DNA of 55,027 nt, taken from IMG/VR virus record IMGVR_UViG_3300030116_003984, positions 1-55,027 of that record; one strand, given 5' to 3'. This stretch comes from a virus. Lineage: Duplodnaviria > Caudoviricetes. Below, piece after piece: positions 26,857-47,822 of the stretch. Position numbers and translations under genes: made by a program. The notes beneath the pieces are model-generated. The model was not told where the DNA came from. It worked only from the letters and a program-made list of their open reading frames with translations, and did no database searches. Position 1 is the stretch's first letter. Every line of letters starts with the position of its first letter.

Positions 26857-26885
26857 AAAAAAAGGAGGGGGGATTAACCCCCTCC
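26857..26885 (-). terminator. Rho-independent terminator after capsid gene
   Basis: GGAGGGGG/CCCCCTCC stem followed by T run. Confidence 0.8.
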
Positions 26886-26914
26886 AAATATAATAAGCAA
26901 TTATGCTCTTTCAA
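26885..26914 (-). promoter_or_regulatory. Bacteroidota promoter initiating inside the capsid terminator
   Basis: TTG-N19-TATATTTG ending at the first base of the hairpin. Confidence 0.55.
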
Positions 26915-28382
26915 TCAAGAAGAATCTGTTTGGAGCGAATCCTTCAAATCCTCTTTCAGTTCTATAGTGGCAACGTAATTCGTCAACCTCAGATGTAGCT
27001 TGCTCTAAACCAGCAGAACCAGTTAACCAGTGCTCCATCTCACGAGAGTAACCTCCTGCTTCTTTGTAACGAATACGTAAAGAAGGAATGTTATCACCTG
27101 TACGAGCGTCTTTTCCATTGTCACCTGGGATTACGATACCCATTCCTGGATAATCAAATCCGTCAGCACCCAACATTGGGAAGTGAGAAAGCGCTTCATA
27201 AGTTTTCTTGTGGAATACATATCCACCTCTCATGAATGACTTGAAGCCCATTGCTACAGCAATTTCTTCAGCACCGTTGAAAGCACCGTAAGAAATACCA
27301 CCACCAGCAAACATAGCTGCAACAGCATCATCAATAGCTAATGATAAATCAATACCAGCAAAGATAGTGTTCTCACGAGAACCTCTATACTTGTCTAATG
27401 TACGAATCATTGAGTCAAAATCAGATAAGTTGAAACCAGCAAGTTGGTTATAGTTATGAGTGTTACCGTTGTTACGGATAAAAGGAATAAGACCTTCAGT
27501 ACCACGTAAGTTAGTAGCAGTGTAGATAGCCTCTGTAGAAACAGCTTGGTTACCTAATAACATTTGCATTTCACAGTAATCCATGAATCGCTTGTATGTA
27601 TCACCTTCACCTTTTAAGTACCATAAGTATCCACGCTGTCCAGTAGACTCATCTTCAACCTCAAACCAAATTTTGTTTGTAGCCTCAGAACCAGAAACTC
27701 TGTATGATTCTTTCATAATCATAACATTGTTTTTGTACTCGATAACTTGTGGAGTAAGTCCAGTTGGCTGACCAGTTCCTTCAGCAAACTCAGTACCAAT
27801 AATGATAAGAGTATCACCTACAGCTGGAGCAGTCATTTGTGAACCATCGTAGCTTAATACGTGAAATACAACCTGAGTGTGTGAAGCAGCAGTACCACCA
27901 GTAACACCCGTAGAGTGTCCATCCATAAATACACCAGAGTTACCGTACTTACCACCAAAGATAGCAACAACAACACCTGTTTCGCCATATTTGTTTTGTA
28001 CGATATTACCAATACGTAATGGAGTGGAAACGTCAGTAGCGTTATCAGCACCGTCTAATGCACCAATAGTCTCCATAGAACCTGCCTGTAAAGCAAACTC
28101 ACGACCATCAGTCAAAGTTGTATCTTCTGCAGTTACTGTAACATTTTGGTGAATAAAATCTTCTTCGTAGTGGTAGTACTCTTTTTGAGCAACTGGCGCT
28201 TTAGCGCTAATCATTTCAAGGAATCCTGTGATACCTTGACTTCCGTATCTTTTTACAAAATCTTCAGACACATCTGGCTCATGAATAGATAATCCAGAGT
28301 GGAAGTTTGATGAAGATACATAATTTTGTAGGGTAGCAACCTGTAACGCACTAGGAATACCACCGCCTGTAAATGTAGCCAT
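26901..28382 (-). CDS. Major capsid protein
   Basis: 493 aa; KRYGSQGITGFL, GTEFAEGT, YRVSGSE, GYLWYLK, RFMDYCEMQM, GTEGL; high-expression codon bias; follows portal and scaffold. Confidence 0.85.
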   Translation of the reverse strand: MATFTGGGIPSALQVATLQNYVSSSNFHSGLSIHEPDVSEDFVKRYGSQGITGFLEMISAKAPVAQKEYYHYEEDFIHQNVTVTAEDTTLTDGREFALQAGSMETIGALDGADNATDVSTPLRIGNIVQNKYGETGVVVAIFGGKYGNSGVFMDGHSTGVTGGTAASHTQVVFHVLSYDGSQMTAPAVGDTLIIIGTEFAEGTGQPTGLTPQVIEYKNNVMIMKESYRVSGSEATNKIWFEVEDESTGQRGYLWYLKGEGDTYKRFMDYCEMQMLLGNQAVSTEAIYTATNLRGTEGLIPFIRNNGNTHNYNQLAGFNLSDFDSMIRTLDKYRGSRENTIFAGIDLSLAIDDAVAAMFAGGGISYGAFNGAEEIAVAMGFKSFMRGGYVFHKKTYEALSHFPMLGADGFDYPGMGIVIPGDNGKDARTGDNIPSLRIRYKEAGGYSREMEHWLTGSAGLEQATSEVDELRCHYRTERGFEGFAPNRFFLIERA

Positions 28383-33866: not shown

Positions 33867-33890
33867 ATCTAGTTAAAATTAACTTACAAC

Positions 33891-33924
33891 TAGCAAAAAT
33901 ACAAAAATTGTTGTATATTTGCAA
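33891..33924. promoter_or_regulatory. Overlapping divergent Bacteroidota promoters
   Basis: Plus: TATATTTG at 33914-33921. Minus: TTG-N20-TATTTTTG with -7 at 33894-33901. Confidence 0.7.
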
Positions 33925-37525: not shown

Positions 37526-37556
37526 CAAATGTAATAATAATTACACTTACAAACAA
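37526..37556 (-). promoter_or_regulatory. Leftward Bacteroidota promoter
   Basis: TTG-N20-TACATTTG. Confidence 0.7.
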
Positions 37557-37628: not shown

Positions 37629-37659
37629 TTGATTAATATTATTTATTTTAGTATATTTG
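37629..37659 (+). promoter_or_regulatory. Rightward Bacteroidota promoter (probably leaderless mRNA)
   Basis: TTG-N20-TATATTTG ending 4 nt before ATG 37664. Confidence 0.7.
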
Positions 37660-37663
37660 TATC

Positions 37664-39409
37664 ATGGCTAAAAAATTTAAAACCTGGAATAATAGCTCTT
37701 TTACAGTTGGCGCTCCAACAGCTCGTGGCGCTACTCCAAAAGCAGGAAGTTCGTATGCAACAAAATGGTTTGTTTGCTCTAGAACTCCCTCAAGAGCTTT
37801 AGAGTTAATATTAAAAACAGCCCTGCCTCATTATTATTTGGAGTCAGAGCAGCAAGGACAAAATTTTTCAGTTAACTCTTGGACTGAAGTTCTTCAAGAT
37901 TACTGGAGTAATATAGGTAAAGGAAAATGTCCCAGAATAAAAGACATACCTGGTTTTAAAACAGACTTAAATTTTTCTCAAGGTTTTAGTTTAACATTTC
38001 CAAACGCAACAAAACGTCATTTTAAAAATTCAGAAACTGGTAGCGGTGCTATTGTAAATTATTCTATACCTCCAAATGTTAGCGGATATGTAAATCCATC
38101 GACAGTAGATGTAGAGGTAATACCTGGAAGTTGGAATGGTAAATACTATGAATACAATGATACTATTCAGTTATCTCCTTCATGGACTTACCATGCTGCT
38201 AGGCAAACAGCACCAGTTCCAGATTATTGTTTGCCAGAGCCTGGAACAAATTTATTTAATGATGTTCATGTGTCAAAGCCTGCATTGTATAGTGATAACG
38301 GAACAGGTTATCCTTCTGTCGGTTGGAAGGGTAATTCAAATGCTAGTATGCATGAACATTTAATTAAACCGCAGTTTCAATCAGTTAGTTTCCCTTCAAA
38401 TTTATATAACTTTATAGGTTCAACTCCTTATGCAGGTGGAACAGCTTTTGGAGCTGATACCTGGAAAGCAAGCTTGCATGCTCAAACTTATTATACTGGT
38501 CAAGGAAGCTACAGATATGAAGCTAACGCAAACAACCCAGCATTATTTAGGCAGTTTGATGCCTTGAGTGGTGAAACAAATGCAACTTTAGTTGTTGATA
38601 CTAATGGAGGATTACAAGGGGGCGTCATGATAAAACATACTGCTCAATCTTTTGAACAAGCATTGATACCTACTAATTTAACCGACACTTGCAGTAATCA
38701 ACCAATCTTTAACCATAGTAATATTGTGCAATCTGCACAAAGTGCAGCTGGTAATTTGCAAGCTGCAGATGCATACCTTAGAGCTTTTGGTAAAGATGCT
38801 TTTAATATGGGATATAATACTATTGACGGAAATGAAAATGATGCATTATTTTCTATTGATGGTTTTCATGATGGAATATTTGAAGTAACTGTTCCTATAT
38901 GGTGGAATGACGGAAGTTCAGTACCTTTTATTAATAATCAGAATCTGACAATTAATGCTCAATCATCCAATCCTCTTTATGGATTTAAAAGTGGCAACAC
39001 TTTAGCAGGGGTTGGTGCAAACATCAATGCCTTAGTAGCTACTACAAATCCAAACAATGTATTGTTTGTTGAATCAACAATATTTGGCTACAATGACGGA
39101 GGCCCTTGGGGTAACTGCGGCTATCCATTTGGTAGCACGTTATTTGATAATAATACTACGAGACTTTTTACAGTAAACCCACAACCTATGGGGACTTTTA
39201 TGCAAGGCGGTGTGTTTAACCCAATGGATGAAGATTTTTTATTTGTTGCTGACAGCGCTACTGTTAACAAAGCTAAGTTAGATGATTTAGAAAATACATC
39301 TTGGTTTCCTACGCATACAGCTTGTAAAAACCTTACTCCTTGTAGAAAATGTACAGTTAACAGTCTTGGAGGAGACCGATTAGTTACTAAGCATAAGTAT
39401 ATAAGCTAA
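37664..39409 (+). CDS. Hypothetical protein, N/G/S/T-rich, possibly structural
   Basis: 581 aa ORF with promoter; no motif recognised. Confidence 0.7.
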   Translation: MAKKFKTWNNSSFTVGAPTARGATPKAGSSYATKWFVCSRTPSRALELILKTALPHYYLESEQQGQNFSVNSWTEVLQDYWSNIGKGKCPRIKDIPGFKTDLNFSQGFSLTFPNATKRHFKNSETGSGAIVNYSIPPNVSGYVNPSTVDVEVIPGSWNGKYYEYNDTIQLSPSWTYHAARQTAPVPDYCLPEPGTNLFNDVHVSKPALYSDNGTGYPSVGWKGNSNASMHEHLIKPQFQSVSFPSNLYNFIGSTPYAGGTAFGADTWKASLHAQTYYTGQGSYRYEANANNPALFRQFDALSGETNATLVVDTNGGLQGGVMIKHTAQSFEQALIPTNLTDTCSNQPIFNHSNIVQSAQSAAGNLQAADAYLRAFGKDAFNMGYNTIDGNENDALFSIDGFHDGIFEVTVPIWWNDGSSVPFINNQNLTINAQSSNPLYGFKSGNTLAGVGANINALVATTNPNNVLFVESTIFGYNDGGPWGNCGYPFGSTLFDNNTTRLFTVNPQPMGTFMQGGVFNPMDEDFLFVADSATVNKAKLDDLENTSWFPTHTACKNLTPCRKCTVNSLGGDRLVTKHKYIS

Positions 39410-39651
39410 TGCCTAAAAAAAGAGATTATAAAAAAGAATACAAAAAATTCCAAGCGTCTGATAGAGCAAAAAAAAGACGTGCGGCTTTAAATAAATATAA
39501 CCGTAAGAAAGGAACGTACGGTAATGGCGATGGACTTGACGCTTCTCATAGAGGTGGAAAGATTGTTGGTTTTGAAAAAGCTAGCAAAAATCGTGGAAGG
39601 ATTGAAAAATCTAGAAGAAAAGGTTCCAAACGTAGAACTACTAAAAAATAA
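39409..39651 (+). CDS. Small basic HNH-like protein
   Basis: RDYKKEY...GDGLDASH...SKNRGR. Confidence 0.6.
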   Translation: MPKKRDYKKEYKKFQASDRAKKRRAALNKYNRKKGTYGNGDGLDASHRGGKIVGFEKASKNRGRIEKSRRKGSKRRTTKK

Positions 39652-39655
39652 AATT

Positions 39656-39730
39656 ATGTACGGTAAAAAGAAAATGGGTAAGAAAAAGCCTATGAAGAAG
39701 AAAAAGAAAGTAATGAAGAAAAAGAAGTAA
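39656..39730 (+). CDS. 24-aa poly-Lys peptide MYGKKKMGKKKPMKKKKKVMKKKK
   Basis: ATG after AAATAAAATT leader; fills the gap exactly. Confidence 0.6.
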   Translation: MYGKKKMGKKKPMKKKKKVMKKKK

Positions 39731-39732
39731 TT

Positions 39733-39930
39733 ATGGCATTTGTTAATAAAAATCTTCCTAAAAAACCAAGCTCAGGCCCTAGAATGGTAAAAGTTAGTCC
39801 TGGTGAAATGGGTCATGGTAACAGACCAAGACCAAGTAACATTATGCGTAACATTAATGTAATGCACGGGAACCAGCAAGTGTTTAATAAAAAAGTAAAT
39901 CCTGGCGGAGGGGACTGCGGTTGTGGCTAA
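39733..39930 (+). CDS. Small basic protein ending CGCG
   Basis: Tiles cluster. Confidence 0.6.
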   Translation: MAFVNKNLPKKPSSGPRMVKVSPGEMGHGNRPRPSNIMRNINVMHGNQQVFNKKVNPGGGDCGCG

Positions 39931-40222
39931 GAAGTTAGACAAAAGCAAAATGGCATGCAATAAGCCTAGACGCTCTCCGAATCCAAAGAAGAAGAGAGTT
40001 GTCAAGGCTTGTGCTAATGGCCAGGAAAAAATTATTCACTACGGAGCTACGGGTTATGGTCACAATTACTCCGCTGCTGCACGTAAATCTTTCAAAGCAA
40101 GACACCGTTGTAGTTCTGCCAAGAATAAATTATCTGCTAGATATTGGGCTTGTAAAAATTTATGGGCTGGCTCTGGCGGTTCTAAAAAATCATCTCCGAA
40201 AGGACGTAAAGGAAAATACTAA
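39923..40222 (+). CDS. Small basic protein (DUF5754/DUF6321-like)
   Basis: EKIIHYG...RKSFKARHRC...SARYWACKNLW. Confidence 0.7.
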   Translation: MAKKLDKSKMACNKPRRSPNPKKKRVVKACANGQEKIIHYGATGYGHNYSAAARKSFKARHRCSSAKNKLSARYWACKNLWAGSGGSKKSSPKGRKGKY

Positions 40223-40380
40223 TGGCAAAGAAAAAGAAATCAAATAAAATCTGTCCTGCTGGTATAGCTTGGGCTAAGCGTACATTTGATAAGTATCCAA
40301 GTGCATACGCTAACTTAGCAGCTTCTAAGTACTGCAAAGACCCAAACTACGCTAAGGGTGCAAAAAGAAAGAAAAAGTAA
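40222..40380 (+). CDS. 52-aa basic protein (PSAYAN motif)
   Basis: Hand translation MAKKKKSNKICPAGIAWAKRTFDKYPSAYANLAASKYCKDPNYAKGAKRKKK; TAATG-coupled at both ends. Confidence 0.75.
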   Translation: MAKKKKSNKICPAGIAWAKRTFDKYPSAYANLAASKYCKDPNYAKGAKRKKK

Positions 40381-40505
40381 TGGATAAAGCAAAACTAAAA
40401 AAGATTGCAGGTGAGCTAAGAAAAGCTTCTGCAATGCATAAATCACAAGCGGTGCGTATTGATAAAATGTTAAAGTCAATGACACCTAAAAAAAAGAAAA
40501 AGTAA
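40380..40505 (+). CDS. 41-aa basic protein
   Basis: MDKAKLKKIAGELRKASAMHKSQAVRIDKMLKSMTPKKKKK; TAATG-coupled. Confidence 0.7.
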   Translation: MDKAKLKKIAGELRKASAMHKSQAVRIDKMLKSMTPKKKKK

Positions 40506-40633
40506 TGGCTAAAAAAATGACACCAGCTCAAAAGCGTATTGCAAAAGCAGCACCACCATTTAACAAGATTACAGCTGCAGACTTTAGAGCACTAAAGAGA
40601 AACGGTGGTAAAAAGAAAAAAGGTAGAAAGTAA
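40505..40633 (+). CDS. 42-aa basic protein
   Basis: MAKKMTPAQKRIAKAAPPFNKITAADFRALKRNGGKKKKGRK; TAATG-coupled. Confidence 0.7.
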   Translation: MAKKMTPAQKRIAKAAPPFNKITAADFRALKRNGGKKKKGRK

Positions 40634-40878
40634 TGGGTGAATTAAAGAAATGGCTTAAACAAAAGTGGGTTCGTATAGGTACTGATGGCTCAATCAAGGG
40701 TGAATGCGGTACAAGTAAGAATAAAAAAAATCCAGACAGATGTTTGCCATTATCCAAGGCTAGAAGCCTATCAAAAGCAGAACGAGCTAAGACTGCTAGA
40801 AAAAAGAAAGCTGCAGGTAGCAAAGGAAAACAGTTTGTTGCCAATACAAAAAAAGCTAAAGTGCGTTCAAAGAAATAA
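40633..40878 (+). CDS. Small basic protein (DUF5872-like)
   Basis: LKKWLKQKWV...CG...RCLP.SKARSLS.AER. Confidence 0.7.
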   Translation: MGELKKWLKQKWVRIGTDGSIKGECGTSKNKKNPDRCLPLSKARSLSKAERAKTARKKKAAGSKGKQFVANTKKAKVRSKK

Positions 40879-40884
40879 TAAGCG

Positions 40885-40950
40885 TAACCACGCTACACTT
40901 GTAGTGTAACCACATTACACTTGTAGTGTACTCTCATTACACTTATATTG
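40885..40950. repeat. Three tandem 22-bp repeats containing palindrome TACACT-N3-AGTGTA
   Basis: TAACCACGCTACACTTGTAGTG / TAACCACATTACACTTGTAGTG / TACTCTCATTACACTTATATTG. Confidence 0.85.
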
Positions 40951-40959
40951 CACTACTTC

Positions 40960-40998
40960 AAGGTTAATACACTTACCCCCAGTGTGTTAGCCTTTTTT
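40960..40998 (+). terminator. Terminator-like hairpin after the basic-protein operon
   Basis: AAGGTTAATACACT/AGTGTGTTAGCCTT 14-bp stem with two G-U pairs, then T run. Confidence 0.65.
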
Positions 40999-41032
40999 AA
41001 TGCCTATATATACCTTTATAATGTTTAGTGTC

Positions 41033-41062
41033 TTGCTAGTATATATGACGCACATATGTTTG
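41033..41062 (+). promoter_or_regulatory. Probable early-region promoter
   Basis: TTG-N19-TATGTTTG, matching the consensus seen at other operons. Confidence 0.55.
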
Positions 41063-41413
41063 GGGTGGGGGTTTATGCATGCGTACGTACACTTACATTG
41101 CAATACCCAAACCGAATATCCCAACGGGGTGGGGTCTTATCTAGTCAGCGCTAGTTATCTTTCTCTAGTGGGAACTCGTGCGCTCCGTGGCCACCCCCTA
41201 GCGCCCTCGGTGGCTCTATCTAGTGGCCTCTAGTGGCTTATCTGTCGCCCTCGATAGGTTTCTAGTGGTTGGCGCAAGTGTTTTTATGTGCGCTAACCCC
41301 TACGCCCTATCTAGTATATTACAGAGTTTAACCTAGACAGCCCCCTAAAATTGTTTTGTGTACCCCCCTTTCTTCTCTAGTAATTTGGTGATTACGATTT
41401 GTTTTTGTGTGTT

Positions 41414-41730
41414 TGAGGTGTCGACAGCAAACGAGCAACAGACACGAGGCAAACGCCTCACCCACATATTGCGATACAGGTGTAACACGAGAGTGCAACA
41501 CATATGAGTTCAAGCGGTTGCAATACCGCCTAATACCCTCGGAGCATCTAGTAAGCAAGTTTGATTCACAAGCGTAACCATTGGGGGCGGTACGAGGGTT
41601 GGAAACCTCGGCTAAATTCTGGTAAGAGCAAGAATACCTTTGATTTCTGATAGCTTTAAGGTATAGGTGTAAGCTATCCCTACCGACAACACGGGAGGAC
41701 ACTCTTTCGAGGGAGTGTGTAATATGTGTT
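41414..41730 (+). ncRNA. Unassigned structured RNA domain
   Basis: GC-rich and non-coding; 10-bp helix 41463-72/41719-28 encloses several hairpins (GAGA, GCAA and UUCG-type loops; 8-bp 41649-56/41671-78). Confidence 0.6.
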
Positions 41731-41733
41731 CTA

Positions 41734-41829
41734 GGTGGACTAGAACGACTACGAGTAATTCATTCGTGCTAGAGACCATTATGGTTGACGTATCTAGCTA
41801 CTCGAGGGGAGCAATACCCCTGTCCACTA
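41734..41829 (+). ncRNA. tRNA-like four-way-junction element
   Basis: 7-bp acceptor-like stem GGTGGAC/GTCCACT, 3-bp D-like arm, long arm CGAGTA/TACTCG + GCTAGA/TCTAGC, 5-bp stem with 7-nt loop AGGGG-AGCAATA-CCCCT. Confidence 0.5.
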
Positions 41830-41851
41830 CTAACTTAAATTTATTTCAATC

Positions 41852-42064
41852 ATGACAAATCAAGTATTATCATTCGACTTAGACCTAGTAAACGAGGCAG
41901 TTCAACTAGGTGTGAACAAGAGAATAATCAACAACTACCGAGTAAACCCTGAGTTCCAAGAGGCTATGGAGCTAGAGGAGGCTATCGAGGAGCAAAGATA
42001 CTCCCTAGCGTATGCTTACAGCATCTCTAGGTTTGCCGTAGAGAAGACAGAGGTGTCTTGCTAG
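41852..42064 (+). CDS. First early gene, hypothetical acidic protein
   Basis: 70 aa, A/T-rich leader; stop abuts the ribozyme. Confidence 0.7.
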   Translation: MTNQVLSFDLDLVNEAVQLGVNKRIINNYRVNPEFQEAMELEEAIEEQRYSLAYAYSISRFAVEKTEVSC

Positions 42065-42173
42065 AGTTACACTGATGAGGCCTCAAAGGTCGAAACACTA
42101 GAGAATATCAATAGGCGACCTAGCCGAAGCTACTCGACTAAAGTGATGAGATATTACTCTAGTGTCTGTAACT
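42065..42173 (+). ncRNA. Hammerhead ribozyme (type I topology), predicted cleavage after C42166
   Basis: Stem I AGTTACA/TGTAACT; core CTGATGA; stem II GGCCT-CAA-AGGTC; GAAA; stem III CACTAGAG/CTCTAGTG; GTC triplet. Confidence 0.9.
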
Positions 42174-42191
42174 AACAAAATTTATATCACT

Positions 42192-42509
42192 ATGGATTAC
42201 GCATTCTCAACAATTTCAACACTCAAGCACCTAGAAGGGATGTTTTGGGAGGACTGCAAAATAAATTTAGATACTTTTGGGTTTATTACATCTAGACATA
42301 GGGGAGAGTTAATTGAACTCCACTGGCATAGCGCAGGTAAACAAAAGTCCTTTTCAGATTTAATCAAGAGTATCGAGAACCTTCGTGTACTTTCTTACAT
42401 CAAGGAACTAAACTGCGTATGGAAAGCCGAACAAGGATGGTTTGATATAAGCATAAAGGTAGAGATTGAGGAAGGATACACCTATGATGTTTCAATTACA
42501 TTACACTAG
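42192..42509 (+). CDS. Hypothetical early protein (start revised from 42162 to ATG 42192)
   Basis: The GTG at 42162 lies inside the ribozyme; ATG 42192 has an A-rich leader. Confidence 0.65.
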   Translation: MDYAFSTISTLKHLEGMFWEDCKINLDTFGFITSRHRGELIELHWHSAGKQKSFSDLIKSIENLRVLSYIKELNCVWKAEQGWFDISIKVEIEEGYTYDVSITLH

Positions 42510-42513
42510 AACT

Positions 42514-42843
42514 ATGAAGAAGATAATCCTAGGAGTATTGAGCGTAGCTTTGCTATGCTCTTGCTCCAAAGATGAGTATGAGGTTTCTCCTACTTATCTA
42601 GAACAACAGCTATCTGTCGAAGGCGACTACATTACATACTATGTAATCAACGCTAAAGATATGGTAAGCGAAACCCTAGTGGCTACATACGAAGGTGTCG
42701 AGTACACTACTGATGATATGCCTAGGAATAACGGAGAGATATTTATCTTTCCCATAACATACCCTAACCTAGCAGTAACGCTAGATAGTAACATACCAAA
42801 AGAACAAATAACATTTACCCTAGGTGGTAAACAAATTAACTAG
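42514..42843 (+). CDS. Lipoprotein (start revised to 42514)
   Basis: MKKIILGVLSVALLCS-C-SKDEYE signal peptide II. Confidence 0.7.
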   Translation: MKKIILGVLSVALLCSCSKDEYEVSPTYLEQQLSVEGDYITYYVINAKDMVSETLVATYEGVEYTTDDMPRNNGEIFIFPITYPNLAVTLDSNIPKEQITFTLGGKQIN

Positions 42844-42845
42844 AT

Positions 42846-43166
42846 ATGATAAGATATGAACTTTACTTTGCCTTAGGTGGCAAACACACGGACAATGCAG
42901 AACAAGTAAACTTGGAGAAGGTACTAGAATTAGTATGCGATACCTTTGGTGGCTATTCACTACAAAAGATACAAGGTGGGTGGAAACATTATACGGGTAA
43001 CGCTTGGGTAATGTTAGAAGAAGATAGCTACCGACTAACAATCTTTACATATAGTGTAAAACCAGATAAGCATAAGCTATCCCTATTATGCGACTACATC
43101 AAAACAAACTTTCAACAAGAGGAGGTTATGTACACTGAAGAAGAAGTAAAGGTAGTAAGGATATGA
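42846..43166 (+). CDS. DUF3574/PII-fold protein, candidate SAM lyase
   Basis: FGGYS...GGW...EEDS...IK..FQQEEV. Confidence 0.5.
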   Translation: MIRYELYFALGGKHTDNAEQVNLEKVLELVCDTFGGYSLQKIQGGWKHYTGNAWVMLEEDSYRLTIFTYSVKPDKHKLSLLCDYIKTNFQQEEVMYTEEEVKVVRI

Positions 43167-43246
43167 CACCGATAGACCTAGCAGTTTACCTAACGATATA
43201 CTACTTTGTAGTATTTTTGCTAAGATATATTAAACAAGAAAAATAA
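43163..43246 (+). CDS. 27-aa membrane peptide
   Basis: MTPIDLAVYLTIYYFVVFLLRYIKQEK; ATGA overlap. Confidence 0.5.
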   Translation: MTPIDLAVYLTIYYFVVFLLRYIKQEK

Positions 43247-43250
43247 AATT

Positions 43251-43355
43251 ATGGTAAAAAAATGTAGTATATGTAGGGCAAAATTTATACCTACAAACAA
43301 AAATGCAGAGACAAGACAATGTTGTAAAAAATGTATAAAAGAATTTAATAAATAA
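43251..43355 (+). CDS. 34-aa zinc-ribbon peptide
   Basis: MVKKCSICRAKFIPTNKNAETRQCCKKCIKEFNK. Confidence 0.55.
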   Translation: MVKKCSICRAKFIPTNKNAETRQCCKKCIKEFNK

Positions 43356-43359
43356 AATT

Positions 43360-43503
43360 ATGAAAAAAGATATAAATTTTTATAGAGAATGCTTGATAAG
43401 AGAATTAAGAAAACCTCTCAATAAACAAGATTTTATGTATATGAGATTTTTAGATGAAAAGATATACAAATTAAAAGAAAAAGAACTAACTAAAATTAAA
43501 TAA
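43360..43503 (+). CDS. 47-aa hypothetical protein
   Basis: MKKDINFYRECLIRELRKP...; same leader as neighbours. Confidence 0.55.
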   Translation: MKKDINFYRECLIRELRKPLNKQDFMYMRFLDEKIYKLKEKELTKIK

Positions 43504-43507
43504 AATT

Positions 43508-43759
43508 ATGGACAAACACGATTACATAGATATATACGACTTGACCGAGAAGATTACAAGAGCAATACTAATGGGACAAGAGGCGTATGTAATAAACAAT
43601 GGCAAGATGAACTCACATGTACTAGATTTGCCTACACCACAAACATCAGGTACTTGGACACAAAGAGAGTCATACGCTAGAATGAAAGCACAAGTATTGG
43701 TAGATAGATACAATAAAATGCAAACACAAATTTACAATAATGAAAGCAAAGAAAACTAA
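43508..43759 (+). CDS. Hypothetical early protein
   Basis: Tiles operon. Confidence 0.65.
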   Translation: MDKHDYIDIYDLTEKITRAILMGQEAYVINNGKMNSHVLDLPTPQTSGTWTQRESYARMKAQVLVDRYNKMQTQIYNNESKEN

Positions 43760-43856
43760 AAGACAAGCTAGAGTAGAAATAGCTGAGCAACTACTGATGT
43801 ATTTTTTTGTACTAGGTATGATATGCTCAATAATTTACAACCTCATAAACCACTAG
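43740..43856 (+). CDS. 38-aa membrane peptide
   Basis: MKAKKTKRQARVEIAEQLLMYFFVLGMICSIIYNLINH. Confidence 0.5.
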   Translation: MKAKKTKRQARVEIAEQLLMYFFVLGMICSIIYNLINH

Positions 43857-43858
43857 AA

Positions 43859-44125
43859 ATGAACGACTTAACAAAGCAAGATGTAGAAAACTACATCAAG
43901 GAACTAGGATGCGAACCTAGACACAACACATGGGCGATAGCAGAAGCGTGTAACGAACTAGATTATCTATGGGATGACCTACCTAGTGCTGATGCACTAA
44001 TGAGGTTTATTCTAGGTAATGAGCCGATTAAAGGAATGTGGACACATTCGTACGGCTTTCATACTGCTTCTGGTAGAGCAATCGTAGAACAATTTACTAA
44101 CTATTACAATCAATACAATGAGTAG
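43859..44125 (+). CDS. Hypothetical early protein (start revised to 43859)
   Basis: ATG 2 nt after previous stop; THSYGFHTASGR. Confidence 0.6.
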   Translation: MNDLTKQDVENYIKELGCEPRHNTWAIAEACNELDYLWDDLPSADALMRFILGNEPIKGMWTHSYGFHTASGRAIVEQFTNYYNQYNE

Positions 44126-44345
44126 AACACAACACGGAACATACTCGGAAAAGATAAACGACAACATACTAGAGATAGAGTATGAGTATTACTATGCACC
44201 TGCTACACACTACGACCAAGAAGAAGAAAGCGTAGATGTAACCAAGGTACTAGCTAACGGAAATGATATAACTGATTTCTATTGGGATTTCTTTGATACA
44301 GAGATAATGCACGATAGAATACTAGATTATTGCAGAGGTAACTAA
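44118..44345 (+). CDS. Acidic hypothetical protein
   Basis: EIEYEYYYAPAT...ANGNDITD. Confidence 0.65.
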   Translation: MSRTQHGTYSEKINDNILEIEYEYYYAPATHYDQEEESVDVTKVLANGNDITDFYWDFFDTEIMHDRILDYCRGN

Positions 44346-44365
44346 CAAATTAAAACTAAATTAAA

Positions 44366-44572
44366 ATGGAACAGATTAACTTTATGAAAATGTTTATGGC
44401 TATGACAGATATAGCTAGTGAAACTAGAGAACAAAAACTTGCTAACAGAGAGCGTATTGTATTTGCAACGCACGGAATAATCAAGCCAAAAGATTGGGAT
44501 ACTCTACCTATGGAGGAGAGAGAGTCAAGAATAGATAATATGCTAGAAGCAACTAAAGATATTACGAAATGA
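44366..44572 (+). CDS. Hypothetical protein
   Basis: GIIKPKDWDTLPMEERESR. Confidence 0.65.
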   Translation: MEQINFMKMFMAMTDIASETREQKLANRERIVFATHGIIKPKDWDTLPMEERESRIDNMLEATKDITK

Positions 44573-44937
44573 AAGACAATAAACGAACAACAAAGCAAGT
44601 AATAGCAGAACAACAAGCTATCAATAGAAAGCTATGGGCAAAAGAAAATGGTAGATTACATCACGTTGACGCTAATAAACTAATAGCAGAATTTATGGGA
44701 TTACATCCTTTGAGTAGGGCGAGTTTTATTTCAGATAAAAATCAAGAATATTATGAAAGTTTATCAGAACTAAAATACCACACCTCTTGGGATTGGCTTA
44801 TGCCTGTAATAGAAAACATAGACCACTTACAGCACGAACCTGTTGTGTCTATTGAAAACGCTTTAGCCACAAGGAGTATAGATGACACCTATAAATCAGT
44901 AGTGGAATTTATTAAACAATACAACAATGAAGATTAG
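44569..44937 (+). CDS. Hypothetical protein (NKLIAEFMG...YHTSWDWLMPVIE family)
   Basis: Motif common in Bacteroidota phages. Confidence 0.65.
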   Translation: MKDNKRTTKQVIAEQQAINRKLWAKENGRLHHVDANKLIAEFMGLHPLSRASFISDKNQEYYESLSELKYHTSWDWLMPVIENIDHLQHEPVVSIENALATRSIDDTYKSVVEFIKQYNNED

Positions 44938-45301
44938 ATTTGAATGGACAACTAGGGAGGCCTATCTCCTAGACAAACTAGAAAAGAATACGATAGGTAA
45001 ATTAAAAGAAGCAACAACAAAAGTTAAAACTAAATTTCAAAACATCATGAACAAACTAACAACAAAGACAATGACACCAAAACAATATGATGACTTGTGG
45101 GAATCAATCGAAGATAAGCTAGATGATTTGTATAACAACAACCCTGATAGCTACGACCTAGAAAATTACGACTTTAGATTAGAGGGTAATGAGATTTATC
45201 TAGAAGATATGACAATGGGGTACGACCATAACCACTCAGCACAAATGGTACTAAAGCTATTGGCAGAAGAAGGTATAATCAAAATAAAAAATAAAAAGTA
45301 A
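44927..45301 (+). CDS. Hypothetical protein
   Basis: Tiles operon. Confidence 0.6.
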   Translation: MKIRFEWTTREAYLLDKLEKNTIGKLKEATTKVKTKFQNIMNKLTTKTMTPKQYDDLWESIEDKLDDLYNNNPDSYDLENYDFRLEGNEIYLEDMTMGYDHNHSAQMVLKLLAEEGIIKIKNKK

Positions 45302-45693
45302 TGGGATACAGAAGTACAATAATTTTTGGGGTGGAGCAGAGCCACGCCCCAAAGCTAGATGATATATTGATAGAACACCAAATGTTTGCAGATTTAAGGG
45401 TATCTAAAATTTACCCTAATTACGAGATGGTTCAAGACGACCATGGAGATTCTAAATCTTGGAAGAAGGTGGGTGATGTGCAAATGGTTATTTATAGGTT
45501 TGAATACTTGAAGTGGTATGATGATTACCCAGAGGTCATGGCTATAACTAAATATCTAGAAAAACTACATGAAGAAACTGAAGACACTACATTCCTTGTT
45601 GGATTAGGAGAGGAAGGTGAGATACATTCAGAGATTGGCGATTGGTATAATTATGTAGACCACATATCTAAATTAGAAATACAAGATATATAA
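45301..45693 (+). CDS. Hypothetical protein (MGYRS...KWY..YPEV family)
   Basis: Common phage early-protein motif. Confidence 0.65.
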   Translation: MGYRSTIIFGVEQSHAPKLDDILIEHQMFADLRVSKIYPNYEMVQDDHGDSKSWKKVGDVQMVIYRFEYLKWYDDYPEVMAITKYLEKLHEETEDTTFLVGLGEEGEIHSEIGDWYNYVDHISKLEIQDI

Positions 45694-45696
45694 ATA

Positions 45697-46170
45697 ATGA
45701 ACATATTTTATTTACACGAAGACCCAGAGGTATGTGCATCATACTTCTATGACAAACACAAAGTCAAGATGATACTAGAGTCTGCTCAGATGCTATGCAC
45801 TGCACACCACCATTACGGCAGAGGGGAGCATGTACCTTACAAGAAGGCACACTACAACCACCCCTCTACCATATGGACTAGGGAGAGTACCCAACACTAC
45901 ACATGGCTTTGGCTACACATGATGGCTTTGGGTGAGGAGTATACTAGAAGGTATGGTAAGCAACACCTCACTATCATCAAGTGTGCAGATGCTTTGTGCG
46001 TACCTCCTAGCGATATGCCTAACACTACATTCGTTCCACCCCCTCAATGTATGCCTGATGAGTTCAAGCACGAGGATACTATTACTGCCTACTGGAATTA
46101 CTACGTGGGGGAAAAGCATAGCGTAGCAAACAAGAATGAACGAATATATTTCAAACCTTTTACAAGATGA
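45697..46170 (+). CDS. Pyrimidine dimer DNA glycosylase/DenV-family protein
   Basis: MNIFYL...DKH..KMILESAQML, H.NHPSTIW.RES, EYT.RYGK.H, PPQCMPD. Confidence 0.75.
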   Translation: MNIFYLHEDPEVCASYFYDKHKVKMILESAQMLCTAHHHYGRGEHVPYKKAHYNHPSTIWTRESTQHYTWLWLHMMALGEEYTRRYGKQHLTIIKCADALCVPPSDMPNTTFVPPPQCMPDEFKHEDTITAYWNYYVGEKHSVANKNERIYFKPFTR

Positions 46171-46415
46171 GTAAACACAGAATACCAAACGAAAAATGGA
46201 TGGAGTTTGTTAGCGAAATAGCTACACAACTCACCGAACTAAACTTTCATGAAGACACCTTTATAGCTATTCAAAGTGATGATGCAGTAGATGAGGAATA
46301 CAAATTTACAGAAGATGCACAAGAGTTCTTCAATGAAAGATATGATGAAGTAGAAACACTACTAGAGAATATGCTAGATATAACTAACGATAAACCAGAG
46401 TATTATGAAGGATAA
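46167..46415 (+). CDS. Acidic hypothetical protein
   Basis: FTEDAQEFFNERYD. Confidence 0.65.
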   Translation: MSKHRIPNEKWMEFVSEIATQLTELNFHEDTFIAIQSDDAVDEEYKFTEDAQEFFNERYDEVETLLENMLDITNDKPEYYEG

Positions 46416-46548
46416 TGAACCAACAATGAGAGATGGGGCTAGATTGTTTGCTATAATGCTAATTACAGAATTAAAAAAGCAAGGCCAACACAAGTCGGTA
46501 GAAATTGTTACAGAAACATTAAAAAAATTAAAGAAAAATGAAAGTTAA
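46405..46548 (+). CDS. 47-aa hypothetical protein
   Basis: Hand translation MKDNEPTMRDGARLFAIMLITELKK...; fills gap with overlaps. Confidence 0.5.
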   Translation: MKDNEPTMRDGARLFAIMLITELKKQGQHKSVEIVTETLKKLKKNES

Positions 46549-46798
46549 AATAATGCAAAGAAGCGTGTACCACAAGTACGCAGAAGTAGAAATAGACATA
46601 CCTGATATGGAGTGTAATGATATACACGAATACCTACTTGAAAATGAAAACCTATATACAGACAAGATAGATAAAGCAATAGATGAAGCCGAATATGAAT
46701 ATGGAAGTGGTGTAGATGATTATACTGGTATGAATGAGCCAGAATCAGATTCTGAATGGAGGTTTGAGTATGGAGATAAATACGGAGGACACTTATGA
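46538..46798 (+). CDS. Acidic hypothetical protein
   Basis: 23 of 86 residues D/E. Confidence 0.65.
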   Translation: MKVKIMQRSVYHKYAEVEIDIPDMECNDIHEYLLENENLYTDKIDKAIDEAEYEYGSGVDDYTGMNEPESDSEWRFEYGDKYGGHL

Positions 46799-46995
46799 TA
46801 AATTATACTGACACAGAGGTACATGAGATGTACCTAGATTGGTTCAACAACTTTTTATCTACTGGTAGATTTGCTGAACACTATGACCTATCAATGACAG
46901 AAGTAGAGAATGTTTTAGATAGGGGAAGAAAAATACAGGAACTAATAAATAAACAAATAGAAAATGGAAAAGAAGCACAGAACAAAGAAAGCTAA
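46795..46995 (+). CDS. Small HTH-like protein
   Basis: YLDWFNNFLS..RFAEHYDLS. Confidence 0.6.
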   Translation: MINYTDTEVHEMYLDWFNNFLSTGRFAEHYDLSMTEVENVLDRGRKIQELINKQIENGKEAQNKES

Positions 46996-47158
46996 CTGGA
47001 AGGTTTATAGAGATGAGGTTACTCATACGCTACGAACAATAGCTAAATGGATTGAAGACCCAAGGACACCAGACTATCATGATGAAGATTTGGATGTACT
47101 TTTGGATGAAGCTAAACATAATTACAAAATATATAAAAGAGAAAAAAATGGAGAATAA
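46964..47158 (+). CDS. Hypothetical protein
   Basis: Tiles operon. Confidence 0.55.
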   Translation: MEKKHRTKKANWKVYRDEVTHTLRTIAKWIEDPRTPDYHDEDLDVLLDEAKHNYKIYKREKNGE

Positions 47159-47330
47159 AAAAGAAGTAAATCGTGAAGAATTGGAAGAATTGATTGGGGA
47201 ATGCAAGAGGTATCTTGTAGAGGCAATCATGTATATAGATGCTAACCCAGAGAAAACAAGTACCAATATGCATATATGGAGAGCAAGTCTTTGGAATAGT
47301 GGTTTAATGGAAGAAATAAAAGAATACTAA
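47148..47330 (+). CDS. Hypothetical protein (start revised to 47148)
   Basis: MENKKEV start avoids a long overlap. Confidence 0.55.
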   Translation: MENKKEVNREELEELIGECKRYLVEAIMYIDANPEKTSTNMHIWRASLWNSGLMEEIKEY

Positions 47331-47331
47331 T

Positions 47332-47592
47332 ATGAGATATATAGGAATTAAGACTGAATACAAGAAACCTTTTAACGAAGCTATAATGTATAAGATGTAT
47401 GAAGTAGACAACGGATTGAAGTATCTAGGTTCATGGAATGAAGAAGAGCTGATAAAGGATTTTGAACTCGACTACGAGGGAGAGATAGAAAACGGAGCGT
47501 TCTTTTCTAATGAAGAAGATATGGTCATGGTAATCAATGTAGATGATGTGTCAAGTAGAATAAAAGAGGAAATTAAATCACTTGCACATTAA
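47332..47592 (+). CDS. Acidic hypothetical protein
   Basis: Tiles operon. Confidence 0.6.
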   Translation: MRYIGIKTEYKKPFNEAIMYKMYEVDNGLKYLGSWNEEELIKDFELDYEGEIENGAFFSNEEDMVMVINVDDVSSRIKEEIKSLAH

Positions 47593-47611
47593 AAAAATAT
47601 GTTTATATTTG
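47582..47611 (+). promoter_or_regulatory. Promoter for replication/recombination operon
   Basis: TTG-N19-TATATTTG. Confidence 0.8.
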
Positions 47612-47630
47612 CAACCCACAACAACAAATT

Positions 47631-47822
47631 ATGATAAATAAAGATGATATTCATAAGAGGTTACTTGATATAGTAGCCAACCTGCCTGATAACAAAGAGA
47701 GCAGGTCTTTAGGTTTAATTATTTCTACAATAGGTTTAGCAATTACTATCGGTAAGTTAGAAGAATTGTCAGACCTATGTGAGAAACAAAGTAAAGATTA
47801 TATTAACCAGATAATAAATTAA
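47631..47822 (+). CDS. Hypothetical protein
   Basis: First ORF after promoter. Confidence 0.6.
   Translation: MINKDDIHKRLLDIVANLPDNKESRSLGLIISTIGLAITIGKLEELSDLCEKQSKDYINQIIN

What the first reader, a model, noticed from the sequence alone, without database searches (positions are those of the whole stretch)
41414..41730. Large unassigned structured RNA ahead of the first early gene
A 10-bp long-range helix (41463-72/41719-28) closes a ~265 nt multibranch domain with tetraloop hairpins. Mutually exclusive pairings are present: 41524-30 and 41535-41 can pair with 41586-92 and 41593-99 in pseudoknot order, or form local hairpins with 41514-18 and 41606-10. G-U pairs favour the plus strand. I cannot match it to RNase P, tmRNA, group I/II introns or known small ribozymes. 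It is a candidate new ncRNA, ribozyme or switch made at the start of infection, for example a decoy for a defence protein.
Basis: partly seen in the sequence, partly recalled or inferred. Interest (0 to 1): 0.8.

Follow-up and report, generated by a model that had tools for sequence, protein, structure and literature searches.

The report
Swappable non-coding leader in marine phage
The flagged stretch is a strain-specific, probably transcribed non-coding insert in the leader of a marine phage's early genes, not a conserved new RNA class, but its conserved neighbours (a small hairpin, a junction-shaped fold and a hammerhead ribozyme) do look like working RNA.

Summary
The fold beats dinucleotide shuffles (z -3.3 for 41414-41730; -2.5 for 41448-41730), but it does so equally on both strands. 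It is unremarkable among GC-matched 300-nt windows of this genome. No Rfam family matches.

The closest relative has 94% identical terminase and 96% identical left flank. There, window 41448-41728 is replaced by about 440 unrelated, CTAG-rich, non-coding bases. All other copies found are at least 96% identical and show no compensatory change inside the 265-nt domain, so its fold is untested.

RNA-level selection is visible around it:
- Hairpin 41446-41459 keeps pairing in three haplotypes through two compensatory pairs.
- A junction fold at 41734-41828 is fully paired in both lineages, with compensatory changes and two alternative helices.
- A type-I hammerhead at 42064-42174 has an intact core, and its stem III differs in three lineages.

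Contigs from two metatranscriptomes cover 41420-41601.

Best reading: this is a swappable non-coding cassette in a modular, processed early leader, comparable to the early long non-coding RNAs of Cellulophaga phage phi14:2. A new ribozyme or switch in the domain is unlikely (about 5%).

The parts
40960..40994 (+). Terminator-like hairpin plus T-run that ends the upstream + strand operon of small basic proteins. It marks the start of the roughly 970-nt non-coding region 40879-41851.
   Evidence: 14-pair stem followed by TTTTTAAT; ORF map
41033..41062 (+). Bacteroidetes-type promoter-like site (TTG, N22, TAnnTTTG). It is one candidate start for the early leader. The -7 box is not kept in the L011 relative.
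   Evidence: 1 of 3 such sites on the + strand of the window; several sites on the - strand sit just upstream of operon or gene starts; L011 sequence
41140..41552 (+). Cluster of 8 TCTAGT motifs, all on the + strand, each after a C-rich tract. One copy (41547) lies inside the element.
   Evidence: 56 in the window against 43 expected; 8 within 412 nt; repeat D3 41193-41218 / 41525-41550, 73% alike
41345..41447 (+). Most conserved non-coding block: 96% identical to L011 and 2 differences in L162. It holds a weaker promoter-like TTG-N22-TAATTTGG and a 5-7 bp palindrome at 41379-41394 whose length differs among the three lineages.
41418..41445 (+). Hairpin HP1 (GUGUC ... GACAC). Its sequence is conserved, so it gives no covariation information.
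   Evidence: minimum-energy fold (5 of 5 pairs never vary against L162)
41446..41459 (+). Hairpin HP2: a 5-bp stem with a 4-nt loop at the 5' edge of the swapped cassette. Three natural haplotypes all pair: GG/CC (window, X13), AG/CU (X17, an RNA library) and AU/AU (X4, L162). The L011-type cassette has a different 4-bp hairpin at the same place.
   Evidence: 2 of 5 pairs changed on both sides; for L011
41448..41728 (+). It is 281 nt, GC 0.47, with only 1 CTAG. In L011 and L163 it is replaced by about 440 nt of unrelated, CTAG-rich sequence (19 CTAG, GC 0.45).
   Evidence: the longest ORF on the early-gene strand of the L011 cassette is 31 aa
41463..41472 (+). 5' arm of the 10-bp closing helix.
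   Evidence: 10 of 10 pairs invariant against L162
41719..41728 (+). 3' arm of the 10-bp closing helix.
41420..41601 (.). The only part of 40880-42100 covered by contigs of the two metatranscriptome runs laid: X17 covers 41420-41588 and X16 covers 41458-41601. Strand and true ends are unknown.
   Evidence: tables 2 and 8
41734..41828 (+). Conserved junction fold ('domain R').
- P1: 41734-40 / 41822-28.
- P3: 41768-73 / 41793-98.
- P4: 41805-09 / 41817-21, with a 7-nt loop.
- Strand 41751-57 pairs either locally with 41762-67 or distally with 41799-41804.
- A further hairpin, 41729-34 / 41740-45, competes with P1.

The fold ends 23 nt before the ATG.
   Evidence: 100% of cells paired in window and L011 under both alternatives; z -2.54; no differences in L162 or X4 across 41729-41840
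41852..42064 (+). First early gene (70 aa). It is 93% identical in protein and 90% in DNA to the L011 homologue and matches no family.
42064..42174 (+). Type-I hammerhead ribozyme.
- Stem I: 42065-71 / 42167-73.
- Core: CUGAUGA at 42072-78 and GAAA at 42092-95.
- Stem II: 42079-83 / 42087-91.
- Stem III: a long hairpin, 42095-42165.
- Predicted cleavage: after C42166, 25 nt before the next ATG (42192).

Best explanation
The interval is the upstream half of a long untranslated leader of the phage's early operon. The leader runs from about 41070 or 41395 to 41851 on the + strand. It is built from modules in this order:
1. A highly conserved block with two small hairpins (HP1, HP2).
3. A conserved junction-shaped fold (41734-41828) with two alternative helices.
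4. The first early gene.
5. A hammerhead that cuts just ahead of the next gene, which also varies between lineages.

Shown here:
- the cassette swap;
- the compensatory changes in HP2 and in the junction fold;
- the intact hammerhead core with covarying stems;
- contigs in RNA libraries over 41420-41601.

Inferred:
- The leader is transcribed with the early genes.
- The flanking structured modules act as processing or stability signals, so that the cassette accumulates as an early non-coding RNA.
- The cassette's own fold matters little beyond being compact and self-contained. A helix-closed insert leaves the conserved scaffold intact, as the variable inserts in hammerhead stem III do.
For: Cassette swap:
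- Flanks align at 96% (41345-41444) and 77-90% (from 41729 on), but nothing aligns in between.
- The same two cassette types recur in independent metagenome contigs L162 and L163.
- The early region is mosaic in general. The slot after the hammerhead is also replaced (window 42098-42512).

RNA-level selection on the flanks:
- HP2 has 2 of 5 pairs changed on both sides against L162, and a third intermediate haplotype occurs in an RNA library.
- Domain R is 100% paired in both lineages, against 33-46% when the partners are slid. It has 10 of 27 pairs (local fold) or 9 of 24 pairs (distal fold) changed on both sides.
- G-U pairs in P1 and P2 of domain R point to the + strand.

Hammerhead as an internal positive control:
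- The canonical core is present, and the three-way junction is the minimum-energy fold in 3 of 3 lineages, each with a different stem III.
- It scores 34.5 and 29.1 bits against RF03152.

Transcription hint:
- Each of the 2 RNA runs laid (of 5 RNA runs listed) gave one contig on the 1221-nt stretch, and both lie on 41420-41601.

Precedent:
- In phi14:2, two long intergenic regions of the early region are transcribed above most genes from the earliest time point (preprint 10.1101/2020.03.07.982082, passages read).
- The 2529-aa protein here carries a crAss muzzle domain.

Composition:
- GC is 0.45-0.49 in the leader against about 0.35 for the genome.
Against: - No transcript end, strand or abundance is known. 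The RNA-library contigs have depth about 2, are about one read long, and could be DNA carry-over (the output itself warns of this).
- Processing at domain R is pure inference. It matches no RNase P or RNase Z substrate model. ARAGORN calls it tRNA-like only at a threshold that gives 24 calls in the window, and it does not call the L011 copy.
- Covariation in domain R rests on two sequences from which the structure was itself derived. The six 'double changes' of P3 come from a poorly alignable stretch of CUAG palindromes.
- HP2's compensatory changes would also fit a DNA palindrome.
- The promoter is not located. The 41033-41062 site is not conserved in L011.
- 41631-41840 shows no difference in L162 or X4. 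This could mean the 3' half of the cassette is under constraint, contrary to 'fold matters little', or it could be a recent recombination tract.
Confidence: 0.5

Rival explanations
1. Neutral spacer. 41448-41728 is functionless DNA left by illegitimate or homologous recombination in a mosaic early region. Its helices come from high GC and internal repeats, and the RNA-library contigs are read-through or DNA contamination.
For: - It is replaced wholesale in the nearest relative.
- Its folding is unremarkable among GC-matched windows, equal on both strands, and the 3' half has z -0.56.
- No compensatory change occurs inside it.
- It shares a repeat unit with the upstream leader.
- Cassette swaps are common in this region.
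Against: - Both cassette types are kept non-coding, are GC-rich for this genome (0.47 and 0.45) and sit between modules under RNA-level selection.
- The only RNA-library contigs in 1.2 kb fall on it, in two separate studies.
- There are no differences across 41631-41728 in L162 or X4, although the surrounding region differs by about 3%.
Confidence: 0.25
2. Strain-specific trans-acting early RNA. The cassette is the functional payload, for example a decoy or sponge for a host defence or RNA-binding protein. It is released from the leader and exchanged between phage strains like an accessory gene.
For: - The position is first in the early transcript, with cassette-like exchange between conserved flanks.
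- RNA contigs are restricted to its 5' 180 nt.
- Its composition differs from the rest of the leader: 1 CTAG in 281 nt against 16.4 per kb for the leader, which suggests a separate origin or separate constraints.
- phi14:2 offers a precedent of persistent early non-coding RNAs, one of which is a tmRNA by the tools used here.
Against: - No target, partner gene or homologue was found anywhere else.
- There is no evidence of release or abundance.
- The fold statistics are modest.
Confidence: 0.13
3. One reading: the 265-nt domain is a new self-cleaving ribozyme or a ligand- or protein-sensing switch that uses the mutually exclusive pairings at 41514-41610.
For: - The alternative 7-bp pairings exist.
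- A true ribozyme lies 340 nt downstream. From memory, RNAs found near hammerheads have sometimes proved to be new ribozymes (the 'RAGATH' approach, recalled). That raises the prior a little.
- z is -3.3.
Against: - It is absent from the sister lineage, which keeps the hammerhead, HP1 and domain R.
- No Rfam match appears even at E up to 10 on a 471-nt query.
- No hammerhead core lies inside it.
- 7-bp complements are expected by chance.
- The pairings never vary, so they are untested.
Confidence: 0.05
4. DNA-level element. The region acts as DNA, for example as operator arrays, a replication or packaging site, or hairpin promoters for a virion RNA polymerase, and the hairpins are cruciforms or protein-binding palindromes.
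For: - There is a dense array of TCTAGT sites and palindromes.
- Compensatory changes in HP2 and the palindrome at 41379-94 are symmetric, so they also fit a dimeric binding site.
- Folding is equal on both strands.
Against: - G-U pairs in domain R are kept on the + strand only.
- RNA-library contigs span HP1 and HP2.
- No virion RNA polymerase could be recognised: no DFDxD motif in six large ORFs, and no Pfam or PDB match to a polymerase for the giant proteins searched.
- The TCTAGT array lies mostly upstream of the finding, not inside it.
Confidence: 0.07

Closest known systems
Early long non-coding RNAs of the crAss-like Cellulophaga phage phi14:2 (g004-g005 and g005-g006 intergenic regions; preprint 10.1101/2020.03.07.982082)
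   Same: - Both are marine Flavobacteriia-type phages with crAss-like virion genes.
- Both have a long non-coding stretch at the head of the early region, oriented like the early genes, with GC above the genome mean.
- Function is unknown in both.
   Different: - There is no sequence similarity.
- One phi14:2 region is a tmRNA by Rfam and ARAGORN. The window has no tmRNA.
- phi14:2 expression was measured by RNA-seq. Here there are only two low-depth contigs.
Hammerhead-punctuated gene blocks in phages and prophages (Perreault et al. 2011, PMC3088659, passages read), and Rfam RF03152 RAGATH-1 hammerhead
   Same: - The ribozyme at 42064-42174 lies between genes whose identity varies between relatives, just upstream of a start codon. 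That matches what is described for prophage hammerheads and for HHphage of haloviruses HF1 and HF2.
- It supports the idea that this early transcript is cut into units.
   Different: - This applies to the neighbour, not to the flagged domain, which has no hammerhead core.
- Scores stay below Rfam's cut-offs (24.2 against 48.5; 34.5 and 29.1 against 56.3), probably because of the long, variable stem III.
tmRNA
   Different: ARAGORN and Rfam find none in the window, although the same tools find the phi14:2 gene. There is no T-arm or CCA-type 3' end next to the closing helix (read).
Cis-acting leader RNAs of phage early operons, such as lambda nut boxB and HK022 put (recalled, not tested)
   Same: These are small stem-loops a few tens of nucleotides into an early transcript, where the stem pairing is conserved rather than its sequence. 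HP1 and HP2 fit that description.
   Different: No antiterminator protein or boxA-like element was identified, the loop sequences differ, and nothing was tested.
tRNA-like processing elements
   Same: Domain R has a 7-bp terminal helix that directly abuts a 5-bp stem with a 7-nt loop. From memory, this matches the acceptor/T-arm geometry recognised by RNase P and RNase Z.
   Different: It is not called by ARAGORN at default settings or by Rfam's tRNA model. The relaxed call is non-specific, with 24 in the window. The loop sequences AGCAAUA / AGCGAUA do not match the T-loop consensus as I recall it.

Membership tests
Any Rfam 15 family (including RNase P, tmRNA, group I/II introns, twister, twister-sister, pistol, hatchet, HDV-like, hairpin and riboswitches) | Covariance-model score at or above the family's gathering score | tested here: not met
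   - 0 matches in the whole window at gathering thresholds.
- Nothing overlaps 41414-41730 at E up to 10 on a 1.6-kb query.
- 0 matches on the 471-nt query 41390-41860.
tmRNA | A tRNA-like domain formed by the 5' and 3' ends, plus a tag-peptide reading frame, as detected by ARAGORN or Rfam | tested here: not met
   ARAGORN finds 0 genes in the window, L011, L162 and L163. As a positive control, the same tools find a tmRNA in phi14:2 at 4031-4500. ARAGORN 'tmRNAp' calls appear only at a 60% threshold, among 19 spurious calls.
Hammerhead ribozyme (for the flagged domain 41414-41730) | Core CUGANGA ... GAAA flanked by three stems | tested here: not met
   Pattern search of the window gave 10 matches (4.8 expected). 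None lies in 41414-41730. The only intergenic match on the + strand is at 42072.
Hammerhead ribozyme (for the neighbour 42064-42174) | Conserved core (CUGAUGA, GAAA, A15.1-U16.1, C17) | tested here: met
   Read from the sequences and folds of the window, L011 and L162. Core numbering is recalled.
Hammerhead ribozyme (for the neighbour 42064-42174) | Three stems kept through sequence change | tested here: met
   - The minimum-energy fold is the three-way junction in 3 of 3 lineages.
- Stem III has three unrelated sequences.
- Stem I changes C to U, giving a G-U pair.
- Stem II alternates G-U and A-U.
Hammerhead ribozyme (for the neighbour 42064-42174) | Rfam gathering score | tested here: not met
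   RF00008: 24.2 bits against 48.5. RF03152: 34.5 bits in L162 and 29.1 bits in G001, against 56.3.
Hammerhead ribozyme (for the neighbour 42064-42174) | Self-cleavage at the predicted site | not testable with these tools
   Needs in vitro transcription. The predicted cut is between 42166 and 42167.
Conserved structured non-coding RNA (general criterion) | Present in relatives, with base pairs kept through compensatory change | tested here: not met
   For 41463-41728, the domain is absent from L011 and L163. In the comparison with L162, 0 of the 81 pairs inside the domain changed on both sides. Of all 93 pairs, 88 never vary, 2 vary on one side, 1 is broken, and the 2 double changes lie in HP2.
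Conserved structured non-coding RNA (general criterion), applied to HP2 and domain R | Base pairs kept through compensatory change | tested here: met
   HP2 has three haplotypes, all paired. Domain R is 100% paired, with 0 of 500 (local fold) and 1 of 500 (distal fold) shuffles reaching the observed values. There are only two sequences, and the structure was derived from them.
tRNA or tRNA-like structure (domain R) | A cloverleaf recognised by a tRNA finder | tested here: inconclusive
   There is no call at default settings. At an 80% threshold ARAGORN calls 41734-41830 'tRNA-???', but it makes 24 such calls in the window and none for the L011 copy.
phi14:2-type early long non-coding RNA | Abundant transcription of a long early intergenic region in the direction of the early genes | tested here: inconclusive
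   Contigs from RNA libraries X16 and X17 lie on 41420-41601. Depth is about 2 and the strand is unknown. I laid 2 of the 5 RNA runs listed.
Riboswitch-like bistable element | Two mutually exclusive helices, both conserved | tested here: inconclusive
   In the flagged domain the alternatives exist but never vary. In domain R both alternatives are kept with compensatory changes. No ligand or effector is known.

The most novel reading that the evidence does not exclude
The early leader is an 'RNA cassette slot'. Conserved 5' hairpins and a bistable, tRNA-like 3' junction act as processing signals. They release whatever lies between them as an abundant early small RNA. Phage strains swap this payload (281 nt here, 440 nt and CTAG-rich in the sister lineage) as strain-specific counter-defence or host-takeover RNAs. 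That would be the non-coding equivalent of accessory early genes, in a transcript otherwise punctuated by a hammerhead.
Probability: 0.12. Interest if true: 0.8.

Novelty: new member of a known kind. Interest (0 to 1): 0.45.

Why it matters
Early leaders of uncultured marine phages are almost unstudied. In the one related phage with transcript data (phi14:2), the most abundant early RNAs are non-coding and unexplained.

This locus gives a concrete, testable layout. It has a conserved hairpin, a swappable non-coding insert, a junction fold with two covarying alternative helices, and a hammerhead at the border of a variable gene slot.

If the modules are processing signals, the locus shows how such phages cut early transcripts into units and carry exchangeable RNA payloads. 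If they are not, the result still shows that a good-looking fold in a GC-rich leader is not enough. The true functional RNAs here reveal themselves by surviving a lineage split, and the flagged domain does not.

Tried and rejected
Searches for homologues of the flagged domain found nothing beyond the window-type copies:
- blastn of 40880-41860 against 50,697 phage records: no match.
- blastn of five sub-segments against 161 fetched loci: only the one relative's contig matched, and the element matched nothing.
- Exact 27-mer from the element in IMG/VR: 0 hits.
- Exact 22-mer in 185,579 prokaryote genomes: 0 hits.

Neighbour-gene routes:
- The 581-aa protein gave no locus.
- ORF70 gave only the same relative.
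- The 81-aa gene has over 583 relatives, but its downstream context is not conserved. The 55 loci other than the L011 contig that I tabulated (55 of the 80 returned, those with enough downstream sequence, chosen by me) showed gaps of at most 510 nt.
- Conserved-flank patterns found only the same IMG/VR contig.
- In the metagenome collection the flank pattern found two contigs.
- A covariance model of domain R found only its four known copies in 856 kb.
- A more distant phage, MW202828.1, has no synteny here.

Other checks that led nowhere:
- The MAFFT/RNAalifold alignment of the three hammerheads mis-aligned stem III and was not used.
- 'GTAACTAAC' after the cleavage site turned out to be an ordinary gene-junction sequence.
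- I looked for a virion RNA polymerase. There is no DFDxD motif in six large ORFs, no polymerase family in Pfam or PHROGs, and no PDB match. This does not show absence, because the record is about 90% complete and one giant ORF is cut.
- The parts of 40880-42100 without RNA-library cover say nothing about absence of transcription.
- Supplementary files of the papers were not opened. Supplementary Tables 2-4 of the phi14:2 preprint may give exact coordinates of its non-coding RNAs.
- Literature searches. I saw listings and the passages named. I did not read any whole paper.
- 'Not in print' claims rest only. Neither showed a paper naming a tmRNA in phi14:2.
Full report
SETTING. The window is a 55,027-base virus record. 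IMG/VR classes it as linear, and CheckV estimates it as about 90% complete. Genes for portal, large terminase and virion proteins lie on the - strand up to 37080. A + strand block of small basic proteins ends at 40878 with a terminator-like hairpin at 40960-40994. A dense + strand array of small genes, then recombination and primase-helicase genes, starts at 41852. The terminase is under 60% identical to all 116 matching phage records, mostly Flavobacterium and Cellulophaga phages. A 2529-aa virion protein carries a crAss muzzle domain. The finding lies in the roughly 970-nt non-coding gap 40879-41851. That gap has the highest GC in the window: 0.45 for 41001-42000 against 0.30-0.40 in the other 1-kb bins.

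THE OBSERVATION. The helices are there. The minimum-energy fold of 41414-41730 holds two 5' hairpins, HP1 (41418-22/41441-45) and HP2 (41446-50/41455-59). It also holds the 10-bp helix 41463-72/41719-28, which closes a multibranch domain. The competing 7-bp pairings at 41524-30/41586-92 and 41535-41/41593-99, and their local alternatives, can be read directly from the sequence.

Statistically the case is moderate:
- z is -3.34 on the + strand and -3.49 on the - strand, with 0 of 100 shuffles as good in each.
- z is -2.50 for 41448-41730.
- z is -2.19 for the 5' half and only -0.56 for the 3' half.
- I scanned 548 windows of 300 nt and regressed energy on GC. Windows overlapping the element rank 14th-132nd on + and 111th-154th on -.
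- G-U pairs number 11 of 93 on + and 7 of 93 on -.

No Rfam family matches, even at E up to 10 on a short query. ARAGORN finds nothing.

RELATIVES. One IMG/VR contig of 64.7 kb (L011 and overlapping loci; terminase 94% identical) is the only close relative in that collection. Its flanks align well: 96% over 41345-41444, 77% over 41729-41851 and 90% over ORF70. Window 41448-41728 has no counterpart. About 440 unrelated bases stand there instead. They have GC 0.45 and 19 CTAG, no ORF above 31 aa on the early-gene strand, and a fold no better than shuffles at z -1.85 and -1.44.

A scan of the metagenome collection with the conserved left flank gave two more contigs. L163 carries the L011-type cassette. 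L162 carries the window-type cassette. L162 differs from the window at 9 positions in 41414-41730. Contigs of an independent DNA run (X4) carry the window type with 11 differences in the cassette. The element was found nowhere else. The early region is mosaic in general: L162 and L011 also replace the slot after 42097.

WHAT VARIATION SAYS ABOUT THE DOMAIN. I compared the 93 pairs of the predicted fold between the window and L162:
- 88 pairs never vary.
- 2 pairs vary on one side: G-U to A-U at 41547/41585, and C-G to U-G at 41619/41632.
- 1 pair is broken: 41618/41633.
- 2 pairs change on both sides, and both are in HP2.

The three further X4 changes (41478, 41502, 41505) fall in unpaired positions of the fold. 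A two-pair extension of the 41480-41501 hairpin would make 41478/41505 compensatory, but that extension is my reading and is not in the predicted fold. The closing helix and the 'pseudoknot' arms are invariant, so they are untested.

WHERE RNA-LEVEL SELECTION DOES SHOW.

(a) HP2. There are three haplotypes: GG/CC in the window and X13, AG/CU in the RNA-library contig of X17, and AU/AU in X4 and L162. All give a perfect 5-bp stem, and the loop changes from AAAC to ACAC. The L011-type cassette begins with a different 4-bp hairpin at the same place.

(b) Domain R, 41734-41828. RNAalifold on the window and L011 gives a four-way junction of 27 pairs. All pairs form in both sequences, and 10 are changed on both sides. 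When the partners are slid by 1-3 columns, only 37-46% pair and 0-2 double changes remain. Six of the ten double changes lie in P3, where both lineages have CUAG palindromes that align poorly, so the informative ones are fewer. The strand 41751-57 can instead pair distally with 41799-41804. That fold is also 100% paired, with two clean compensatory pairs (A-U to G-C and G-C to A-U). So two mutually exclusive helices are both kept across the lineage split. A third, invariant hairpin (41729-34/41740-45) competes with P1. G-U pairs place the RNA on the + strand. Domain R shows no difference in L162 or X4. It has a 7-bp terminal helix abutting a 5-bp stem with a 7-nt loop. ARAGORN calls it tRNA-like only at a threshold that yields 24 calls in the window, and it does not call the L011 copy.

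(c) A hammerhead at 42064-42174. Rfam gives sub-threshold hits: RF00008 at 24.2 bits in the window, RF03152 (RAGATH-1 hammerhead) at 34.5 bits in L162 and 29.1 bits in the L011 record. The core CUGAUGA ... GAAA ... GUC is intact in 3 of 3 lineages. In each, the minimum-energy fold is the three-way junction with stem I open. Stem III has three unrelated sequences of different length, with outer arms ACUAGAG/CUCUAGU, UAGGGGA/UCCCCUA and AAGGAA/UUCCUU. Stems I and II change only in ways that keep pairing. The predicted cut after C42166 lies 25 nt before the next ATG. The border of the next variable slot (42097) falls inside stem III. It is the only hammerhead-like hit in the early region of either lineage.

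TRANSCRIPTION. Of 22 runs listed for 40880-42100, 5 are RNA libraries. I laid two of them, X16 and X17, which come from different studies. Each gave a single contig on the 1221-nt stretch, at 41458-41601 and 41420-41588, with depth about 2. DNA run X4 runs through the whole stretch. This is a weak hint that RNA from the 5' part of the cassette is the most abundant species here. It shows neither strand nor ends, and DNA carry-over is possible.

Two promoter-like sites of the Bacteroidetes type are candidates:
- 41033-41062, a full match that is not conserved in L011.
- A 7-of-8 match at 41356-41388, inside the most conserved block.

PRECEDENT. In the crAss-like Cellulophaga phage phi14:2, two long intergenic regions at the head of the early region are transcribed above most genes from the first time point. 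They do not decline, and their functions were left open (preprint 10.1101/2020.03.07.982082, passages read). There is no sequence similarity to the window. One of those regions (NC_021806 4031-4500) is a tmRNA by both Rfam (46 bits against a cut-off of 47, E 1.4e-16) and ARAGORN (tag GSSVQKLAMVA*). It is not in the feature table I fetched. Hammerheads that flank variable genes in phage transcripts, and one that sits 13 nt before an early start codon, are described in Perreault et al. 2011 (PMC3088659, passages read).

READING. The flagged domain is best seen as the content of a swappable non-coding slot in a modular early leader (confidence 0.5). The conserved neighbours carry the evolutionary signature of RNA function. 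The cassette itself does not, and it may be filler (0.25) or a strain-specific payload (0.13). A conserved new ribozyme or switch inside it is unlikely (0.05). A purely DNA-level role is also unlikely (0.07). The hammerhead serves as an internal control: a functional RNA at this locus survives the lineage split with covarying stems, and the flagged domain does not.

LIMITS.
- There are only two lineages and a handful of near-identical copies.
- The structures tested on domain R were derived from the same two sequences.
- No raw RNA reads could be examined.
- The numbering of the hammerhead core, the T-loop consensus, the nut/put analogy and the RAGATH history are recalled, not tested.

Noticed in passing
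window 42064-42174 (+); L162 3160-3245 (-); L011 about 1537-1633 (-): Type-I hammerhead ribozyme between the first early gene and the next, variable, gene. The core is intact in three lineages, and stem III differs in sequence and length in each. The predicted cut is after C42166, 25 nt before the ATG at 42192. It scores below Rfam cut-offs (24-34 bits). A cassette border (42097) lies inside stem III.
   Followed up: yes
window 41734-41828 (+): Unassigned junction-shaped RNA fold just before the first early gene. It is fully paired in both lineages, has two mutually exclusive helices that both covary, and has an acceptor/T-arm-like end. No Rfam match.
   Followed up: yes
L164 (NC_021806, Cellulophaga phage phi14:2) 4031-4500 (+): One of the two unexplained early 'long non-coding RNA' regions of phi14:2 is called a tmRNA by Rfam (46 bits, E 1.4e-16) and by ARAGORN (tag GSSVQKLAMVA*). 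It is absent from the feature table fetched. Two literature searches showed no paper naming it. A tmRNA in another Cellulophaga phage (Calle) is reported in PMC8776804.
   Followed up: partly
window 41001-47822; L011 1-2420: CTAG is strongly enriched in the leader (16.4 per kb) and the early genes (9.2 per kb), against 2.6-3.6 per kb elsewhere. In the L011 cassette it reaches 41.9 per kb. CTA makes up 50% of 100 Leu codons in 12 early genes, against 8% of 391 in 7 late genes, and it is followed by G in 29 of 50 cases. The cause is unknown. It could be a recognition site on early DNA or RNA.
   Followed up: partly
window 41140-41552 (+): Eight TCTAGT motifs on one strand within 412 nt, each after a C-rich tract. 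They are mostly conserved in L011. In the early genes the motif occurs almost only as its complement, ACTAGA. They could be operator, promoter or pairing sites.
   Followed up: partly
window 40881-40946: Three tandem 22-nt units, each able to form a small hairpin, directly after the stop of the 81-aa gene. A similar arrangement occurs in L011.
   Followed up: no
window 41379-41394: A palindrome whose arm length differs among lineages through changes at 41389-41390: 5 bp in the window, 6 bp in L011 and 7 bp in L162. It lies inside the most conserved non-coding block.
   Followed up: no
window 42098-42512 and 43254-43498, against L162 and L011: The early region is mosaic. Whole gene slots are replaced between relatives, and neighbouring segments are 83-97% identical.
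   Followed up: partly
window 39409-40878 (+): A run of very small, lysine-rich ORFs. The last one (81 aa, phrog_23735) has over 583 relatives in IMG/VR, in phages of very different GC content and gene context.
   Followed up: partly
window 37526-37556 (-), 33864-33924 (-), 26885-26918 (-), 25873-25903 (-), 9922-9952 (-), 37629-37659 (+), 47582-47611 (+): TTG-N17-23-TAnnTTTG sites (the Bacteroidetes promoter type, recalled consensus) fall just upstream of operon or gene starts. This suggests host-polymerase promoters for the late and middle genes.
   Followed up: no
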